A stretch of DNA of 64,000 nt from Escherichia coli (GTDB lineage Bacteria > Pseudomonadota > Gammaproteobacteria > Enterobacterales > Enterobacteriaceae). Of this stretch, positions 13,296 to 45,882 are shown one piece after another. A model generated the notes under the pieces. It saw nothing but the letters and a program-made list of their open reading frames with translations, did not search any database and had not been told where the DNA came from. The stretch lies in the NCBI RefSeq assembly GCF_965641715.1, contig NZ_OZ282453.1. One strand, given 5' to 3'. Numbering within the stretch: position 1 is the stretch's first letter; every line of letters starts with the position of its first letter. Both the position numbers and the translations under genes were made by a program.

Positions 13296-13399
13296 AAGGG
13301 TCACCTTAGTAATGCTTACCAAAATATTAACTATATTAATTTAAATGATCAACACCTATATCAGTTTGAGATTATGAGCTGTATTCATAAGATGGTGAT
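13296..13399. promoter_or_regulatory. divergent promoter/operator region between cro-like and repressor genes
   Basis: AT-rich 104-bp intergenic region between divergently transcribed HTH genes; no operator sequence confirmed. Confidence 0.4.
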
Positions 13400-13864
13400 A
13401 TGAGAAGAAAACGCGAAGAAATCGCATCGCCGGAAGCTACGCAACGTCTGCGCGCAATCTGGGATGCAAAAAAGAGAGAGCTCAAACTGACTCAGGAGCT
13501 TGCTGCCGAGCTAATGGGTTTTGAGGCGCAATCTGCGGTTAGCCATTATCTCAACGGAAAGGCTCCACTTAATACTGATGCGGCATTAAAATTCGCTGTA
13601 TTACTAAGAGTTAAGCCTGAAGAGTTGAGGCCTGATTTAGCTGATCTGATGAATTACGTCCGTTCCTCAGGAACTTATGACGAAAGTTTCGAAGGCGAAG
13701 GTTGGCGGATGGTTAACAAGCAACAGGCTGATTTACTGGACCTTTTTGATATCCTTCCCGAATCAGAAAAAGCAAAACTAATCGAAAGGCTTAAAGGCCA
13801 GAATGAACTCTACAAAGAAGCGTTTGAAAATATGCTGGCAGCTCAAAAACGCATGAAGAAATAG
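13400..13864 (+). CDS. prophage repressor, DicA/RacR-like XRE-family HTH
   Basis: 154 aa; N-terminal HTH; C-terminus LDLFDILPESEKAKLIERLK resembles DicA C-terminal region. Confidence 0.7.
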   Translation: MRRKREEIASPEATQRLRAIWDAKKRELKLTQELAAELMGFEAQSAVSHYLNGKAPLNTDAALKFAVLLRVKPEELRPDLADLMNYVRSSGTYDESFEGEGWRMVNKQQADLLDLFDILPESEKAKLIERLKGQNELYKEAFENMLAAQKRMKK

Positions 13865-13883
13865 CTCCCACCACCTCGTAACT

Positions 13884-13910
13884 AAACCGCCATTTTTGGC
13901 GGTTTTTTTG
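13884..13910 (+). terminator. intrinsic terminator after repressor gene
   Basis: AAACCGCC-ATTTT-GGCGG followed by TTTTTTT. Confidence 0.6.
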
Positions 13911-14128
13911 TCCCCTCCGCCCGTCCCCGCCTTACTTTTTATCAAAAAAACACTAAAAATTTCATTAGGATAGTACATTTTTATCAACAAAATGCATATT
14001 TGTGTTGATCATTAATATGAACATAACTAATATTATTACAGAAGCAGCACGGCGCTGTAGGTTTTAGTTCCGCCACCCGGCGTTAAAGGGAGAGATAAAA
14101 TGGTGCTTACGAAGTAGTTCAGTATTTG

Positions 14129-14233
14129 ATGGATTGTTGCGGTATCACTTACAGCCAAGCTGTACAGGCTTTACGCTGCAACGACTGGGATCTCTGGCAG
14201 GCAGAAGCCGCTATACGCAGCAACAAGATGTGA
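14129..14233 (+). CDS. small ORF (34 aa), possibly ydaG-like
   Basis: Manual translation MDCCGITYSQAVQALRCNDWDLWQAEAAIRSNKM; start uncertain. Confidence 0.25.
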   Translation: MDCCGITYSQAVQALRCNDWDLWQAEAAIRSNKM

Positions 14234-14243
14234 TATTCGAAAA

Positions 14244-14399
14244 ATGCAAAAAATCGACCTCGGCAACAACGAATCTCTGGTATGTGGCGTGTTTCCCAAT
14301 CAGGACGGCACATTCACAGCCATGACGTATACCAAAAGCAAAACGTTTAAAACCGAAGCTGGCGCACGTCGCTGGTTGGCAATACATTCAGGTGAATAA
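14244..14399 (+). CDS. small protein (51 aa), YdaF-like
   Basis: Manual translation MQKIDLGNNESLVCGVFPNQDGTFTAMTYTKSKTFKTEAGARRWLAIHSGE; similar in size and position to Rac ydaF. Confidence 0.4.
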   Translation: MQKIDLGNNESLVCGVFPNQDGTFTAMTYTKSKTFKTEAGARRWLAIHSGE

Positions 14400-14400
14400 A

Positions 14401-14763
14401 ATGAACGAAACAGAATTAAAACACGTTATCGCTCTGCTTCTGGAGGATGCAAAGCGCCTCCAGCAGCTGGCCCCAAATGCAGGCACTGAAGAGCGAATTA
14501 TTATGGCTAATAAAAGTCTACATTCTGCATATGATACAAATACAAAGCAAACAGATAAAAATATTATTGTTTATGGGCACAGCGTTAACAGAGAATTTGC
14601 TTACTTTGTTCTGGAAAAATATCAACCTACATTTTGCCGGATAATAGAAGAACTAACATTAAAAGGCAAAGATAAAGAGTTTATTGAAAATGCTGTGGCA
14701 ACGGCAAGCGCAGCAGCCGTTGCCAGTATCAAATCAATGATTGCTCTAGCGATTAACCAATAA
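14401..14763 (+). CDS. hypothetical soluble protein (120 aa), immunity-region moron
   Basis: AT-rich ORF downstream of repressor on the same strand, the position occupied by rex/sieB-type accessory genes in lambda. Confidence 0.5.
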   Translation: MNETELKHVIALLLEDAKRLQQLAPNAGTEERIIMANKSLHSAYDTNTKQTDKNIIVYGHSVNREFAYFVLEKYQPTFCRIIEELTLKGKDKEFIENAVATASAAAVASIKSMIALAINQ

Positions 14764-14920
14764 ACCCAGGGGGGATATCACGCTGAGGTGGGTTAAGAAG
14801 CTCGGTAAACACCGCTCTCAGGCGTTGAACTTCTGAAATAAAATCGGCTTCACTGCAATCCCAGCCTTTGGGGTGCTTAAGTCGCAAATATTCAAAAACT
14901 AACGAATCAATTTCATTCAT
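14753..14920 (-). CDS. small ORF (55 aa) ending in IPPGFIG, same C-terminal motif as the O-like replication protein
   Basis: Start MNEIDSLV with GGAGA RBS; convergent with the 120-aa gene; C-terminus ELLNPPQRDIPPGFIG versus O-like ...DSAIPPGFRG. Confidence 0.3.
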   Translation of the reverse strand: MNEIDSLVFEYLRLKHPKGWDCSEADFISEVQRLRAVFTELLNPPQRDIPPGFIG

Positions 14921-15338
14921 ATTGGATAGCACAATTATTCTCCTTACTAGTTGTGTGAGAACTCCAGTATACCACCGAGCCTGAAGTGGTAAAAAGACAG
15001 GCGCACAACACGAAGGCGCATTTCCGGTATCCATAAAGAGTCGGTCTTGTCTGTTAAATTTAAATGGTGGGAGTGCGCCTCCGGTTGTAAATAACAACAC
15101 TGCTGTGTGTAGTCTTGGCGGCATCAGTTTTTTCTTGAAGTTCGGCTGATGTCCGCCCTTTTTAAAGTGAATTTTGGGATGTGGTGAATGCGGCTAAGCG
15201 CACGTGGCACAGTTAAAAGTCATGTTAGTCCTTATTGGTTTGTGTGGGAAAACCGACAGTAATTGTTAACTGGTTGCAGTCACCTGGAGGCACCAGGCAC
15301 CGCATCCACAAATTTCATTTGTAAAAATGGAGATAATT

Positions 15339-15560
15339 ATGATTGCACATCACTTCGGAACTGATGAAATACCACGTCAGTGTGTGACTCCTGGCGATTA
15401 TGTTCTTCATGAAGGCCGAACATATATTGCATCGGCAAACAATATTAAAAAGCGAAAACTTTATATTCGTAATCTGACCACAAAAACATGCATTACTGAC
15501 TGCATGATTAAAGTCTTCCTCGGTCGTGATGGTTTACCCGTAAAGGCGGAGTCATGGTGA
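15339..15560 (+). CDS. kilR: KilR-like cell-division inhibitor
   Basis: 73 aa [32 protein letters not shown]...; position upstream of ydaE/racC-like genes as in Rac. Confidence 0.6.
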
Positions 15561-16123: not shown

Positions 16124-18109
16124 ATGAGCACAAAACCACTCTTCCTGTTACGGAAAGCGAAAAAATTATCCGGTGAACCTGACGTCGTCCTGTGGGCAAG
16201 CGACGATCTTGAATCGACCTGTGCCACTCTGGATTACCTGATCGTTAAGTCAGGTAAAAAACTGAGCAACTATTTTAAAGCTGTTGCTACTAATTTTCCT
16301 GTCGTTAACGACCTGCCCCCAGAAGGGGAGATCGATTTTACGTGGTGTGAACGCTATCAACTCGGCAAGGACTCAGTCACTTGGAAACTAAAACCGGGTG
16401 CAGCACCAGACAACGCTCACTATCAAGGCAATACCAACGTCAACGGCGAAGACATGACTGAGATTGAGGAGAATATGTTACTGCCGGTATCAGGTCAGAT
16501 TCTGCCTGTTCGATGGCTGGCACAGCATGGCAGCGAAAAACCGATCACACACGTTTCGCGGAGCGAACTGCGCGCATTACATAACGCACAGGATGAAAAA
16601 CTTCCCGCCGTTACCGCGCTGGCTATCTCAAATAAAGCAGCACAACTCGAACCGCTGGAAATTCGCGAGCTCCACAAACTGGTTCGTGACACTGACAAAG
16701 TTTTCCCTAATCCTAGTAATTCAGACCTGGGACTGATGACTGCTTTTTTCGAAGCATACCTGGGCGCTGACTACACCGATCGCGGTCTGCTTACAAAAGA
16801 GTGGATGAAGGGGAATCGTGTTTCACGCATCACCCGCACGGCTTCCGGTGCTAATGCTGGCGGCGGGAACCTCACCGATCGCGGCGAAGGTTTCGTCCAC
16901 GATCTGACGTCACTGGCGCGCGACGTAGCCACTGGCGTACTGGCCCGTTCAATGGATCTGGACATCTATAACCTTCATCCGGCACACGCTAAACGCATTG
17001 AGGAAATTATCGCTGAAAATAAACCGCCCTTTTCTGTTTTCCGCGACAAATTCATCACCATGCCTGGCGGGCTGGATTATTCCCGTGCCATCGTGGTTGC
17101 GTCCGTGAAAGAAGCACCAATTGGGATCGATGTCATCCCCGCGCAAGTCACTGAATATCTGAACAAAGTACTGACTGAAACCGATCATGCCAACCCTGAT
17201 CCGGAAATCGTGGATATTGCCTGCGGTCGCTCCTCTGCCCCGATGCTGCAGCGTGTAACAGAAGAAGAAAAACAGGATGATGAAGAAAAACCGCAACCAT
17301 CTTGCGCAATGGCAGATGAACAGGCAATGGCTGAAACAGTGGAACCGGATGCAACTGAACATCATCAGGACACGCAGCCGCTGGATGCTCAGTCACAGGT
17401 AAATGCTGTTGATGCGAAATATCAGAAACTGCGGACAGAACTCCATGAAGCCCGGAAAAACATTCCGTCCAAAAATCCTGTCGATGCAGACAAATTACTG
17501 GCTGCCTCTCGCGGAGAATTTGTTGAAGGGATTAGCGACCCGAATGATCCGAAATGGGTTAAGGGGATCCAGACCCACGATTCTGTGTACCAGAATCAAC
17601 CAGAAACGGAACAGAACGACCGAAAATCGGAACAGAACAGCCCAAATACGCAACAAAACGAGCCAGAAACGAAACAGCCTGAGCCAGTAGTGCAACAACT
17701 GGAAACGGAGAAAGTTTGCACCGCCTGCGGTCAGGCTGGCGGCGGCAACTGTCCTGACTGCGGCGCGGTGATGGGCGACGCAACGTATCAGAAAACCTTT
17801 AATGAAGAAAATCAGAATGAATATCAGGAAAAAGGTCTGGAGGAAATGGAAGGTGCTGAACATCCGCACAAGGAGAACGCTGGCAGCGTTCCGCATCGCG
17901 ATTGCAGTGATGAAACTGGCGAAGCAGCAGCTTCATCATTAGAAAAACTCGACTGGAAAAGACAAGTGGTGATTGCAGCGGTTTACGGTTTATGTGCGAA
18001 TCCTGCGGGTATAGCCTCAGCGCCATTAATTCCGGGTATTGCAATGATGATTGCAAACAAACTTGAAAATTTTGGGGTGACGGATGATGAGTACATGCCC
18101 AATTTTTGA
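16124..18109 (+). CDS. RecE N-terminal-domain homologue lacking the C-terminal exonuclease domain (661 aa), with low-complexity linker and Cys4 motif
   Basis: First approx 540 aa align with the RecE N-terminal region as I recall it ([14 protein letters not shown]...[30 protein letters not shown]...); C-terminus diverges into [16 protein letters not shown] plus a hydrophobic tail. Confidence 0.75.
17570..17700 (+). repeat. imperfect tandem repeats (GAAACGGAACAGAAC-like units) encoding a Q/E/N/P-rich linker inside the recE-like gene
   Basis: Read directly: ...accagaaacggaacagaacgaccgaaaatcggaacagaacagcccaaatacgcaacaaaacgagccagaaacgaaacagcc... Confidence 0.6.
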
Positions 18110-44340: not shown

Positions 44341-45882
44341 TTACTCTTCGTTCTTCTTCTGACTCAGACCATATTCCCGCAACTTATTGGCAATCGCGGT
44401 ATGTGAAACGCCGAGACGTTTTGCCAGTTTGCGCGTGCTGGGATAATTGCGATAAAGCTGGGTTAATACCGAGCGTTCAAAACGGCTGGTGATTTCATCC
44501 AGCGAACCTTCCATCGCATCTTCGCCCACGGCTACCGTTGCGGCGTCATAATCCGGCAACAAAATATCCTGTGGACGCAGTTCATAACCGTCCAGTTGTG
44601 TCAGTGCGCGATAGATAGCGTTCTTTAACTGCCGCACATTTCCCGGCCACGCATAACGCGTAAGTACAGTATTCAGGTCAGCGGCCAGTTTCGGACGCGG
44701 CACGCCCTGCTCGTCGGCAAAGCGGGCGACGAACAGCTCAGTTAACGGCATGATGTCCTGCGGACAGTCACGTAGCGGCGGCAGATTGAGCGTCAACACG
44801 TTCAGACGATAATAGAGATCTTCACGGAACATGCCTTTTTGCACCAGTTCGACCAGATTCTTCTGCGTAGCGCAAATCACCCGCACATCGACATGCACCT
44901 CATGGTCTTCGCCAACCCGACGGAAAGTGCCATCATTAAGGAAACGCAGTAATTTCGCCTGCATCCGTGGTGACATCTCACCTATTTCATCCAACAGCAC
45001 CGAACCACCGTTCGCCTGCTCAAAGAATCCTTTCTTCCCTTCCGGAGCATGACCAAACAGCTCACTCTCGACCGCATCTTCCGGTATAGACGCACAGTTC
45101 AGCGCCAGGTAAGGTTTGCTCGCTCTTGGGCTTGCCTGATGGCAGGCGTAGGCAAAAAGATCTTTACCTGTACCTGTGTCACCCGTAATCAGCAGCGGCG
45201 CGCTTAGCATCGCCAGTTTCTGCGCCTGTTCGACAACATGCTTCATTTTCGGGCTGACAGCGACAATTTGACTGAAGGCGCTGACGTCCTGGGCGGCGAC
45301 ATTTTGCAACTGACGGCCCATACGAATCGTTGATCGCAACATCACCACCGCACCTGTCAGGACGTGTTGATCATTTTCATCCTGAAGATAAACAGGCGTA
45401 ATCTCCATCAGGAAGTTCTGTCCATTAATAACAACATGCTCGTTATGGGAATCTTGCGGTTCGCTTTCCAGCCAACGTAAAAAATTAAAGCCGTTAATCA
45501 ATTGTGCGGCGGTATGGTTGCGCAGGCGATCCAATTTTTGCCCAAAAAGCTGACAGCTCGCCGGGTTCGCCATATCCACTTTGCTTTTCATATCGACAGA
45601 GAGCACAGGTTCAGGCAACGCCTCCAGTAACGCGCTCAACGCCAGATGCTCACGTTCGGAAGGCATCCACGGGACAGTACGCACATCGGTAACACCTGCA
45701 ATACGGCGTATTTCGGCCATCAGACTGCTGAAACTCTCAAACTCCAGTTCAGCAAAATTGAGGTAGATTCGCCCAATGGGATCAATCTCAATACCGCGTA
45801 AATCAATGCCTCTTAGCACGAGTAGATCGAGTAATTCGCGGGTCAGACCGAGTCGGTCTTCACAAAAGACTTCCAGACGCAT
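44341..45882 (-). CDS. tyrR: transcriptional regulator TyrR (sigma-54-interaction-type AAA+ domain, HTH)
   Basis: 513 aa from MRLEVFCEDRLGLTRELLDLL. Confidence 0.9.
   Translation of the reverse strand: MRLEVFCEDRLGLTRELLDLLVLRGIDLRGIEIDPIGRIYLNFAELEFESFSSLMAEIRRIAGVTDVRTVPWMPSEREHLALSALLEALPEPVLSVDMKSKVDMANPASCQLFGQKLDRLRNHTAAQLINGFNFLRWLESEPQDSHNEHVVINGQNFLMEITPVYLQDENDQHVLTGAVVMLRSTIRMGRQLQNVAAQDVSAFSQIVAVSPKMKHVVEQAQKLAMLSAPLLITGDTGTGKDLFAYACHQASPRASKPYLALNCASIPEDAVESELFGHAPEGKKGFFEQANGGSVLLDEIGEMSPRMQAKLLRFLNDGTFRRVGEDHEVHVDVRVICATQKNLVELVQKGMFREDLYYRLNVLTLNLPPLRDCPQDIMPLTELFVARFADEQGVPRPKLAADLNTVLTRYAWPGNVRQLKNAIYRALTQLDGYELRPQDILLPDYDAATVAVGEDAMEGSLDEITSRFERSVLTQLYRNYPSTRKLAKRLGVSHTAIANKLREYGLSQKKNEE

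What the first reader, a model, noticed from the sequence alone, without database searches (positions are those of the whole stretch)
14129..14763. Accessory genes downstream of the repressor in the immunity region
After the repressor terminator there are two small ORFs (34 aa and 51 aa, ydaG/ydaF-like) and an AT-rich 120-aa soluble protein with no recognised family. In lambdoid phages this slot carries lysogen-expressed exclusion or fitness genes (rexAB, sieB).
Basis: inference. Interest (0 to 1): 0.4.

Follow-up and report, generated by a model that had tools for sequence, protein, structure and literature searches.

The report
Early-left operon genes, not lysogen genes

Summary
The ORFs exist at the stated coordinates in a Rac-like lambdoid prophage of E. 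coli.

- **ydaG:** the "34-aa" ORF is a 44-aa ydaG with a 1-bp deletion in codon 3.
- **ydaF:** the 51-aa ORF is a DUF1391 protein, 86% identical to Qin YdfA.
- **orf120:** it is under purifying selection. It fuses a conserved 45-aa module, found near the repressor in many enterobacterial temperate phages, to a 70-aa phage domain that also occurs alone.

The "lysogen-expressed" reading is not supported for these three genes. A 39-nt inverted copy of the operator/promoter region lies between the repressor terminator and ydaG. The same layout occurs in K-12 Rac and two other heteroimmune prophages. Published K-12 data show ydaF and ydaG rising about 40-fold when RacR falls. The layout matches the DicA-repressed dicB operon, including a DicF/KilS-like RNA before kilR.

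Here the slot holds a convergent 59-aa YdiH-like gene (14932→14753). Its promoter and leader are conserved and drive different genes in other prophages. This gene always accompanies the C-domain of orf120.

The biochemical function of all these genes is unknown. Interest is moderate to low.

The parts
13323..13361 (.). OR-type operator/promoter region between the cro-like ydaS homologue and the repressor gene. On the - strand it reads TTGATC (13352-13347), 17 nt, TAATAT (13329-13324), pointing at ydaS.
   Evidence: Read from the sequence. It is one arm of the 39-nt inverted repeat I1. The 12-mer GTGTTGATCATT is exact here and at 14002.
13400..13864 (+). Immunity repressor, 154 aa. It has an HTH_3 domain and a C-terminus like that of DicA. 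It has no detectable similarity to K-12 RacR, so this phage is heteroimmune to K-12 Rac.
   Evidence: Pfam HTH_3 4e-08. NCBIfam DicA C-terminal match, below the cut-off. No BLASTP similarity to RacR.
13884..13905 (+). Intrinsic terminator of the repressor transcript.
   Evidence: 9-bp stem with 5 GC pairs, 4-nt loop, then TTTTTGT.
13983..14034 (+). OL/PL-type region. It contains the palindrome ATCAACA-N13-TGTTGAT (13983-14009), a -35 TTGATC (14005-14010), a 17-nt spacer and a -10 TAATAT (14028-14033), pointing at ydaG.
   Evidence: Inverted copy of 13323-13361: 39 nt, 79% complementary (I1 and I11). The hexamers and spacing match those of the PR-side promoter (read). The same flanking arrangement occurs in K-12 Rac, L009 and L010.
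14067..14086 (+). Conserved leader element GTTCCGCCACCCGGCGTTAA, a 4-bp GC hairpin just before the Shine-Dalgarno sequence of the first gene. It marks the mosaic joint between the immunity region and the early-left operon.
   Evidence: Unique in the window. 31 of 32 copies in the fetched loci are on the operon strand, a few tens of nt or less before the start codon of whichever gene comes first. Homology with K-12 Rac begins here.
14100..14233 (+). ydaG, frameshifted by a 1-bp deletion in codon 3.
   Evidence: Alignment with five relatives. K-12 YdaG translation. phrog_14709 positions 11-44.
14244..14399 (+). ydaF, a 51-aa DUF1391 protein.
   Evidence: Pfam PF07151 E 1.8e-28, 98 bits against a cut-off of 27. 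86% identical to Qin YdfA.
14401..14535 (+). orf120, N-terminal module of about 45 aa (ELKHVIALLLEDAKRLQQxxPNAGTExRI). It is a predicted helical hairpin. Its ATG lies 1 nt after the ydaF stop codon.
   Evidence: More than 170 proteins share it, with unrelated C-termini. About 100 clusters at 50% identity carry it. It matches PHROGs 30817, 12693, 2982 and 32391. AF2 predicts helices 3-23 and 27-44. pS exceeds pN.
14548..14763 (+). orf120, C-terminal domain of about 70 aa: a beta-hairpin followed by two long helices. Its standalone relatives match phrog_23495.
   Evidence: AF2 pLDDT 85-94 over residues 70-100. About 19 standalone clusters exist, and they hit phrog_23495. pS 0.62-0.84 against pN 0.15-0.23. 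GC falls to 0.30 at the joint.
14753..14932 (-). ORF59, a convergent 59-aa YdiH-like gene with a GTG start behind an AAGGAG Shine-Dalgarno sequence. It overlaps the orf120 stop by 11 nt. It occupies the position and orientation that sieB has in K-12 Rac.
   Evidence: PGAP calls it in relatives (WP_122986998, WP_001502430). It is 46% identical (E 4e-11) to a PF15930 member and shares the invariant EYLR motif. pS 0.72 against pN 0.29 versus the Salmonella homologue.
14934..14995 (-). Promoter and leader of ORF59: -35 TTTACC (14993-14988), TG-extended -10 TATACT (14971-14966), the palindrome CCAC..GTGG in the spacer, and the leader GGAGTTCTCACACAAC.AGTAAGGA.
   Evidence: Promoter scan. The region is conserved across five lineages whose coding regions are saturated at synonymous sites. 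51 copies in the fetched loci all lie on the strand opposite the early operon, upstream of different genes.
15104..15158 (+). DicF-like small RNA with its own terminator hairpin. It is homologous to the KilS RNA of K-12 Rac and lies upstream of kilR.
   Evidence: Rfam RF00039, 41.1 bits (gathering score 48), E 9.5e-07. Alignments to K-12 Rac and to Qin DicF. KilS annotation and northern verification (PMC8175672).
15339..15560 (+). kilR, the next protein gene of the same operon. It is followed by ydaE, racC and recE.
   Evidence: PGAP annotation of near-identical genomes. ORF list.

Best explanation
**Operon assignment.** ydaG, ydaF and orf120 are the promoter-proximal genes of the early-left (PL-type) operon of a Rac-like lambdoid prophage.
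- Transcription starts at a promoter (TTGATC-17-TAATAT, 14005-14033) that sits inside an inverted copy of the OR operator region, just after the repressor's terminator.
- The transcript runs through ydaG, ydaF, orf120, a DicF/KilS-like RNA, kilR, ydaE, racC and recE.
- The immunity repressor should therefore silence these genes in the lysogen. They should switch on at induction or infection.

**What orf120 is.** It is a mosaic protein.
- The first part is a 45-aa helical-hairpin module. In many enterobacterial temperate phages this module is encoded just downstream of the repressor. It is often translationally coupled to ydaF.
- The second part is a 70-aa phage domain that also exists as a stand-alone protein.

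**The partner gene.** The 70-aa domain always travels with a convergent, separately promoted YdiH-like gene (ORF59). ORF59 occupies the sieB position and is the likely lysogen-expressed gene of the slot.

**Inferred mechanism (weakly supported).** The two genes form a functional pair in which the early-expressed C-domain protein modulates or escapes the action of the lysogen-expressed ORF59. Head-on transcription from PL would shut ORF59 off on induction.

**Shown versus inferred.** The anatomy, the homologies, the purifying selection and the co-occurrence are shown. The expression timing is inferred from the architecture and from K-12 and Qin data. The biochemical activity is unknown.

**What the confidence covers.** It applies to the operon assignment and to the mosaic nature of orf120. 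I put the functional-pair idea alone at about 0.2-0.25.
For: **Operator and promoter architecture.**
- The OL/OR inverted copy is 39 nt at 79% complementarity, with identical promoter hexamers on both sides.
- The same architecture flanks unrelated repressors in K-12 Rac (35 nt), L009 (31 nt) and L010.
- The K-12 copy contains TTAGGC-ATA-GCCTAT. This matches the footprinted RacR operator consensus (PMC9638921).
- A strong terminator follows the repressor gene, and no other + strand promoter-like site lies before orf120.

**Expression data from relatives.**
- In K-12, ydaF and ydaG rise about 40-fold, together with kilR, ydaE and racC, when racR expression falls (PMC6765115, PMC11014345).
- The promoter upstream of ydfA is repressed by DicA (PMC5069750). 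The window's YdaF is 86% identical to YdfA.
- A DicF-like RNA precedes kilR.

**Position of the module gene.** It lies between the repressor and kil in inducible phages (Stx phage 75/02, phiES15) and in Salmonella and Enterobacter prophages.

**Coding status and domain structure.**
- Both parts of orf120 and ORF59 show purifying selection.
- The C-domain also stands alone.

**Pairing with ORF59.**
- A YdiH-like convergent partner is present in all five independent C-domain lineages examined. It is absent from the 69 module loci that lack the C-domain.
- ORF59's promoter and leader are conserved, always antisense to the operon, and shared with sieB and other genes.
Against: - There are no expression data for this prophage.
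- The PL hexamers match the consensus at only 8 of 12 positions, so the promoter scan did not list them.
- The K-12 evidence comes from a phage with an unrelated repressor, and the derepression there could be partly indirect.
- KilS may have its own promoter in K-12 (PMC8175672), so operon continuity past ORF59 is not proven.
- An AF2 model of the C-domain linked to ORF59 gave pLDDT 62 and pTM 0.40. This gives no support for a direct complex.
- The two genes overlap physically, so their co-occurrence could reflect linkage alone.
- No sequence or fold match hints at an activity.
Confidence: 0.72

Rival explanations
1. The three ORFs are accessory (moron) genes expressed in the lysogen. They would be transcribed either by read-through from the repressor transcript or from a constitutive promoter, and would provide exclusion or fitness functions like rexAB or sieB.
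For: The slot does carry sieB in K-12 Rac and STEC309. Part of orf120 is AT-rich, like acquired DNA. The cassette is rare, in 8 of 5426 complete E. coli genomes.
Against: A strong terminator follows the repressor gene. An OL/PL copy lies directly upstream. The ORFs share a strand with kilR and recE. K-12 ydaF and ydaG are derepressed when RacR falls (PMC6765115). There is no similarity to Rex, SieB or PADLOC models. sieB itself lies on the opposite strand.
Confidence: 0.08
2. orf120 is a non-functional chimeric ORF. On this view it is a remnant of a short module gene that reads through into inserted AT-rich DNA, as NCBI's annotation implies by calling only codons 1-40 a partial pseudogene.
For: PGAP marks it 'incomplete, missing C-terminus' in every genome inspected. 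Many module proteins have short, unrelated tails of 42-70 aa in total. GC drops sharply at the joint.
Against: Full-length homologues occur in three genera at 45-66% identity. In the C-domain, pS is 0.62-0.84 against pN 0.15-0.23. The C-domain is a family of its own with stand-alone members. It folds with pLDDT 85-94.
Confidence: 0.08
3. The conserved N-terminal module is a regulator of the early programme itself. It could be a lambda CIII-like protease inhibitor or a factor that acts on the conserved PL leader. The C-terminal additions would be incidental.
For: The module gene is always the first or second gene after the repressor. The module alone is a complete protein in many phages. A conserved leader hairpin precedes the operon.
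Against: There is no similarity to N, CIII or any regulator family. The module is acidic and lacks an arginine-rich motif. No second copy of the leader element occurs on the PR side of the window. K-12 Rac lacks the module yet keeps the leader.
Confidence: 0.12

Closest known systems
dicB (dicBF) operon of the E. coli K-12 Qin prophage (ydfA-ydfB-ydfC-dicF-dicB-ydfD)
   Same: In both, a repressor gene is followed on the same strand by a repressor-controlled promoter. Next come small genes of unknown function that begin with a DUF1391 protein (86% identical here). A DicF-type RNA with its own terminator follows, and then a cell-division inhibitor gene (PMC5069750).
   Different: The window has ydaG before the DUF1391 gene. 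Neither YdfB nor YdfC resembles orf120. The division inhibitor is KilR, not DicB. Qin has no convergent gene between the small ORFs and dicF.
Early-left region of the E. coli K-12 Rac prophage (racR-ydaG-ydaF-sieB-kilS-kilR-ydaE-racC-recE)
   Same: Gene order and strands are the same. The sequence from 14060 to 14400 and from about 15003 onward is nearly identical.
   Different: The repressor and operators are unrelated, so the phages are heteroimmune. K-12 carries sieB in the variable slot, where the window carries orf120 plus ORF59. ydaG is intact in K-12.
sieB, the superinfection exclusion gene of Rac, lambda and P22
   Same: ORF59 has the same position, the same orientation against the early operon, and a related upstream promoter region as Rac sieB.
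   Different: There is no sequence similarity. ORF59 has 59 aa, against 162 aa for K-12 SieB. Nothing is known about whether ORF59 excludes phages.
YdiH family (Pfam PF15930), small proteins of unknown function with an EYL motif
   Same: ORF59 shares the EYLR motif. It is 46% identical to a family member found in the same genomic position.
   Different: ORF59 itself does not reach the Pfam model, even at E = 1. K-12 ydiH is not annotated inside Rac or Qin. The family has no known function.

Membership tests
DUF1391 / YdaF-YdfA (PF07151), for the 51-aa ORF | Match to the Pfam model above the gathering score | tested here: met
   98.4 bits against a cut-off of 27.3, E 1.8e-28. 86% identical to K-12 YdfA.
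YdaG (phrog_14709), for the 34-aa ORF | Full-length 44-aa protein that starts at the Shine-Dalgarno-preceded ATG | tested here: not met
   Residues 11-44 match (E 3e-24). A 1-bp deletion in codon 3 cuts off the annotated start. The deletion is unique to the window among six sequences.
Lambdoid early-left (PL/OL) operon | Operator copies on both sides of the repressor gene, with the distal set overlapping an outward-facing promoter | tested here: met
   39-nt inverted copy of OR at 13996-14034, carrying the same TTGATC-17-TAATAT. The arrangement recurs in K-12 Rac, L009 and L010.
Lambdoid early-left (PL/OL) operon | Downstream genes on the same strand include kil and the recombination genes | tested here: met
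   kilR, ydaE, racC and recE follow on the + strand.
Lambdoid early-left (PL/OL) operon | Transcription repressed in the lysogen and derepressed when the repressor is lost | not testable with these tools
   Only indirect evidence exists. K-12 ydaF and ydaG rise about 40-fold when racR falls (PMC6765115). The ydfA promoter is repressed by DicA (PMC5069750).
Lysogen-expressed exclusion genes (rexAB, sieB), for the three + strand ORFs | Sequence or profile similarity to RexA, RexB, SieB or any catalogued defence protein | tested here: not met
   No Pfam, PHROG-function, NCBIfam or PADLOC match. No BLASTP hit of K-12 SieB in the window segment.
Lysogen-expressed exclusion genes (rexAB, sieB), for the three + strand ORFs | A promoter of their own that the immunity repressor does not control | tested here: not met
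   The only promoter-like sequence upstream on the + strand is the one inside the OL copy.
Moron in the sieB slot, for ORF59 on the - strand | Own promoter and ribosome-binding site, transcribed against the early operon | tested here: met
   TG-extended -10 promoter at 14993-14966. AAGGAG Shine-Dalgarno sequence 7 nt before the GTG start. The promoter/leader is conserved in 51 loci, always antisense. Activity was not measured.
YdiH (PF15930), for ORF59 | Match to the Pfam model | tested here: inconclusive
   ORF59 has no hit at E up to 1. Two of six aligned relatives hit the model (best E 1.3e-06). ORF59 is 46% identical (E 4e-11) to one of them.
DicF RNA (RF00039), for 15104-15158 | Score at or above Rfam's gathering threshold | tested here: not met
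   41.1 bits against 48, E 9.5e-07, full model length. The sequence is clearly homologous to K-12 KilS.
phrog_23495, for the C-domain of orf120 | Match to the PHROG profile | tested here: inconclusive
   orf120 itself has no hit. Seven of ten stand-alone relatives found with the orf120 profile do hit it (E 7e-08 to 6e-03).

The most novel reading that the evidence does not exclude
The C-domain of orf120 and the convergent YdiH-like ORF59 form a previously undescribed two-gene cassette that is swapped as a unit into the sieB slot. ORF59, made in the lysogen from a portable antisense promoter, would act against superinfecting phage or on the host. The C-domain protein, made early from PL and tethered to a conserved docking module, would be its cognate antidote or escape factor. 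This would resemble an effector-immunity pair split between the lysogenic and lytic programmes.
Probability: 0.12. Interest if true: 0.6.

Novelty: new variant of a known kind. Interest (0 to 1): 0.33.

Why it matters
**Annotation.** These genes should be listed as early-operon genes, not as lysogenic-conversion genes. Three annotation errors follow from this work.
- NCBI's pipeline calls a conserved 120-aa gene a partial pseudogene.
- The gene caller missed the YdiH-like gene in at least one genome.
- ydaG is broken in this window.

**Leads for experiment.** Three recurrent but undescribed features of Rac-like and other enterobacterial prophages came out of the comparison.
- A 45-aa module encoded next to the repressor, with many different C-termini.
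- A portable antisense promoter/leader that drives sieB and several unrelated small genes.
- A conserved convergent pairing of the orf120 C-domain with a YdiH-like gene.

If the antisense promoter is active in lysogens, it marks a set of candidate exclusion or fitness genes that could be listed by sequence alone.

Tried and rejected
- **Structure of orf120.** The AF2 model had pLDDT 74. Foldseek against the PDB and BFVD gave nothing below E 0.25, only generic helical hairpins.
- **Profile search of solved structures.** Nothing below E 0.37.
- **PADLOC and NCBIfam.** No matches for the ORFs of the finding or for ORF59.
- **YdfB and YdfC of Qin as counterparts of orf120.** Rejected after translation showed they are unrelated.
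- **N-module conserved as an RNA element rather than a protein.** Rejected because synonymous sites are heavily diverged (pS 0.46-0.67) while the protein is conserved.
- **A nut-like second copy of the PL leader on the PR side.** Not found.
- **Direct C-domain/ORF59 complex.** AF2 on a linker fusion with five paired rows gave pTM 0.40, which is not supportive. There was no negative control and the alignment was shallow.
- **Third exact copy of the operator 12-mer at 45364.** It lies inside a 522-aa ORF with no operator context and was judged a coincidence.
- **The 112-aa convergent gene of other cassettes.** No Pfam match.
- **Literature on YdiH.** No functional information.
Full report
**1. 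Context**

The window from about 11.0 to 18.1 kb is the immunity and early-left region of a Rac-like lambdoid prophage of E. coli.
- On the - strand lie homologues of ydaV, ydaU, ydaT (PF06254) and a cro-like ydaS (PF15943).
- On the + strand lie a 154-aa HTH repressor (13400-13864), the ORFs of the finding, then kilR, ydaE, racC and recE.
- Two complete E. coli genomes match 13300-15400 over its whole length, at 99.3% and 97.1% identity. Their annotation agrees with this gene order.
- The repressor has no detectable similarity to K-12 RacR. Homology with K-12 Rac begins only at about 14060. The phage is therefore heteroimmune to K-12 Rac but shares its early-left operon.

**2. The observation**

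The three ORFs are present exactly where stated.

*34-aa ORF.*
- K-12 YdaG has 44 aa.
- In the window the annotated start is ATG 14100, behind GGGAGAG. It is followed by GTGC-TTAC. K-12, PEC41, strain 155, an O121 strain and STEC309 all read GTGCATTAC at this point.
- The missing base puts a stop after five codons. Only the ORF from Met-11 is left.
- A viral contig whose orf120 is 100% identical has an intact ydaG. The deletion is therefore private to this sequence, or it is a sequencing error.

*51-aa ORF.* It is DUF1391 (E 1.8e-28) and is 86% identical to Qin YdfA.

*120-aa ORF.*
- It has no Pfam, NCBIfam or PADLOC match.
- GC falls to 0.30 at 14500-14649, against 0.45-0.49 on either side.

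**3. orf120 is real and is a fusion of two parts**

A search of 5.8 billion proteins found 177 relatives.
- Thirteen align over the full length at 45-66% identity. They come from Salmonella, Enterobacter and metagenomes.
- The rest share only the first ~45 residues (ELKHVIALLLEDAKRLQQxEPNAGTExRI). After that they carry many unrelated tails, giving total lengths of 42 to 140 aa.

An exhaustive profile search gave 122 clusters at 50% identity.
- About 100 clusters carry the N-terminal module.
- Four clusters match over both parts, or over most of them.
- About 19 are stand-alone proteins of 72-143 aa that match only profile positions ~50-130.
- Seven of ten of these stand-alone proteins hit phrog_23495, whose function is unknown.

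The window's N-terminal module hits four PHROGs of unknown function.

Codon comparisons with the Salmonella and Enterobacter genes give these values:

| Part | pS | pN |
|---|---|---|
| N-terminal module | 0.46-0.67 | 0.08-0.28 |
| C-domain | 0.62-0.84 | 0.15-0.23 |

Both parts are therefore protein-coding and under purifying selection. The conservation of the module is not a nucleotide-level signal.

AlphaFold2 (pLDDT 74) predicts a helical hairpin, a disordered linker, a beta-hairpin and two long helices. The C-domain reaches pLDDT 85-94. No fold or sequence match to anything of known function was found.

NCBI's pipeline annotates only codons 1-40 as a "partial" pseudogene in every genome inspected. 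The evidence above contradicts that annotation.

**4. Where the module gene sits**

In every context examined, the module gene lies on the strand of the early-left operon, between the repressor and kil.
- It is the first gene after the repressor in Salmonella and Enterobacter prophages with three unrelated repressors.
- It is the second gene in Stx phage 75/02 and the first in the UV-induced Cronobacter phage phiES15.
- Among 76 loci analysed, a DUF1391 gene ends 1 nt before the module ATG, or overlaps it as ATGA, in about 40. This points to translational coupling.

**5. Expression: an OL/PL arrangement**

In the window:
- The repressor gene ends in a strong intrinsic terminator at 13884-13905.
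- Ninety bases further on, 13996-14034 is a 39-nt inverted copy (79% complementary) of 13323-13361, the region between the repressor and the cro-like gene.
- Both copies contain GTGTTGATCATT exactly.
- Both read TTGATC, 17 nt, TAATAT. One faces ydaS and the other faces ydaG.
- A palindrome, ATCAACA-N13-TGTTGAT, overlaps the -35 of the ydaG-facing copy (I11).

In relatives:
- The same flanking arrangement is present around unrelated repressors in K-12 Rac (35-nt arms), L009 (31-nt arms) and L010 (18-nt operators on both sides).
- The K-12 copy downstream of racR reads TTAGGCATAGCCTA-TTGACA-ATCAA-TTAGGCATTACCTA-TAGT. It matches the footprinted RacR operator consensus (T/A)TAGGC-n3-GCCTA(T/A) of PMC9638921.

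Published expression data agree.
- When racR expression is reduced in K-12, ydaF, ydaG, ydaE and racC rise about 40-fold, and kilR rises more than 70-fold (PMC6765115, PMC11014345).
- In Qin, the promoter in front of ydfA is repressed by DicA (PMC5069750).

The parallel with the dicB operon extends further.
- A DicF-like RNA with its own terminator lies at 15104-15158 (Rfam 41 bits, E 9.5e-07, below the gathering score).
- It is homologous to the northern-verified KilS RNA of K-12 Rac (PMC8175672).

I conclude that ydaG, ydaF and orf120 are early genes silenced by the repressor. This rests on architecture and on relatives, not on measurements in this phage.

**6.

The interval from the end of ydaF (about 14400) to about 15003 is variable among Rac-like prophages.
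- K-12 and STEC309 carry sieB there, on the opposite strand.
- O121 strains carry nothing there.
- The window carries orf120 plus a convergent ORF.

That ORF (14932→14753, GTG start, AAGGAG Shine-Dalgarno sequence) encodes 59 aa.
- PGAP calls it in relatives.
- Its stop overlaps the orf120 stop by 11 nt.
- The longer 123-aa reading of the same frame runs into the DicF-like RNA and is probably spurious.
- It has homologues at the same place in Salmonella (L007), Enterobacter (L009, not called by the gene finder) and two metagenomic contigs (L015, L019).
- It is under purifying selection (pS 0.72, pN 0.29).
- It is 46% identical to a member of Pfam YdiH and shares an invariant EYLR motif.
- YdiH has no known function.

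**7. A portable antisense promoter**

Upstream of ORF59, the sequence TTTACC-N16-(TG)TATACT was picked up by the promoter scan.
- With its leader GGAGTTCTCACACAAC.AGTAAGGA, it is better conserved across the five lineages than the coding sequence is.
- A pattern search found 51 copies in the fetched loci. All lie on the strand opposite the module gene or early operon.
- These copies sit upstream of different genes: the YdiH-like gene, a 112-aa gene of another family, and a further gene in L084.
- In a more diverged form, the element sits upstream of sieB in K-12 and STEC309.
- This is the strongest indication that ORF59, rather than the + strand ORFs, is the lysogen-side gene of this slot. Its activity has not been measured.

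**8. The pairing**

- A YdiH-like convergent gene accompanies the C-domain in all five independent lineages. This holds whether the C-domain is fused to the module (window, L007, L009) or stands alone (L015, L019).
- It is absent from the 69 module loci that lack the C-domain.
- The two genes overlap, so linkage alone could explain the pairing.
- An AF2 model of a linker fusion with five paired rows gave pTM 0.40, which does not support a direct complex.
- I keep a functional pair as the preferred but weak mechanistic guess: an early-made partner of a lysogen-made protein, with head-on transcription acting as a switch.

**9. Rarity**

- The C-domain/ORF59 cassette is present in 8 of 5426 complete E. 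coli genomes.
- N-module DNA is detectable in about 270 of them.

**10. Verdict**

- These genes are mostly ordinary for a lambdoid prophage, and their function is unknown.
- Modest novelty lies in the modular N-terminal domain, the portable antisense promoter and the conserved convergent pair.

Noticed in passing
window 14100-14117: A 1-bp deletion in codon 3 of ydaG (GTGC-TTAC against GTGCATTAC in five relatives) leaves a 5-codon ORF and the 34-aa remnant. It is private to this sequence, or it is a sequencing error.
   Followed up: yes
window 15104-15158 (+): A DicF-like small RNA with its own terminator hairpin lies upstream of kilR. It scores 41.1 bits in Rfam against a gathering score of 48, and it is homologous to the KilS RNA of K-12 Rac.
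   Followed up: partly
window 14067-14086 (+): The conserved leader GTTCCGCCACCCGGCGTTAA forms a 4-bp GC hairpin just before the first gene's Shine-Dalgarno sequence. In the other fetched loci it precedes whichever gene is first in the early-left operon, and 31 of 32 copies are on that strand. Its role is unknown. It also marks the recombination joint between the immunity region and the operon.
   Followed up: partly
window 14934-14995 (-): A promoter and leader with a CCAC..GTGG palindrome in the spacer is conserved in 51 fetched loci, always antisense to the early operon. It drives unrelated small genes, including sieB in a diverged form. The palindrome could be a binding site for a regulator.
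   Followed up: partly
window 14697-14724: A GC-rich hairpin (GGCAACGGC/GCCGTTGCC) lies inside orf120 codons 99-108, 30-60 nt beyond the ORF59 stop on the - strand. It is kept in five lineages, with two-sided changes in 8 of 18 predicted pairs. The covariation energy is about zero and there is no adjacent U-tract. It may be a weak terminator for ORF59, or a by-product of the TTAxAVV protein motif.
   Followed up: partly
window 45364-45375: A third exact copy of the operator-like 12-mer GTGTTGATCATT lies inside a 522-aa ORF on the - strand, well away from the immunity region. It has no operator context and is probably a coincidence.
   Followed up: partly
window 14129-14233: YdaG gives a weak match to UBA-like domains (PF14555, E 0.01, below the cut-off) over ITYSQAVQALRCNDWDLWQAEAAI.
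   Followed up: no
L009 4344-4673 (-); L001, L004 and L014 at the orf120 position: Two annotation gaps in public records. The YdiH-like gene is not called in the Enterobacter contig. NCBI's pipeline calls the conserved 120-aa gene a 40-codon partial pseudogene.
   Followed up: yes
window 16124-18109: The recE-like ORF has 661 aa, whereas the recE genes annotated in related genomes are much longer. It may be truncated or frameshifted here.
   Followed up: no
window 15179-15305 (+): A weak match to the sRNA family STnc100 (25.8 bits against a gathering score of 47, E 0.009) lies between the DicF-like RNA and kilR.
   Followed up: no
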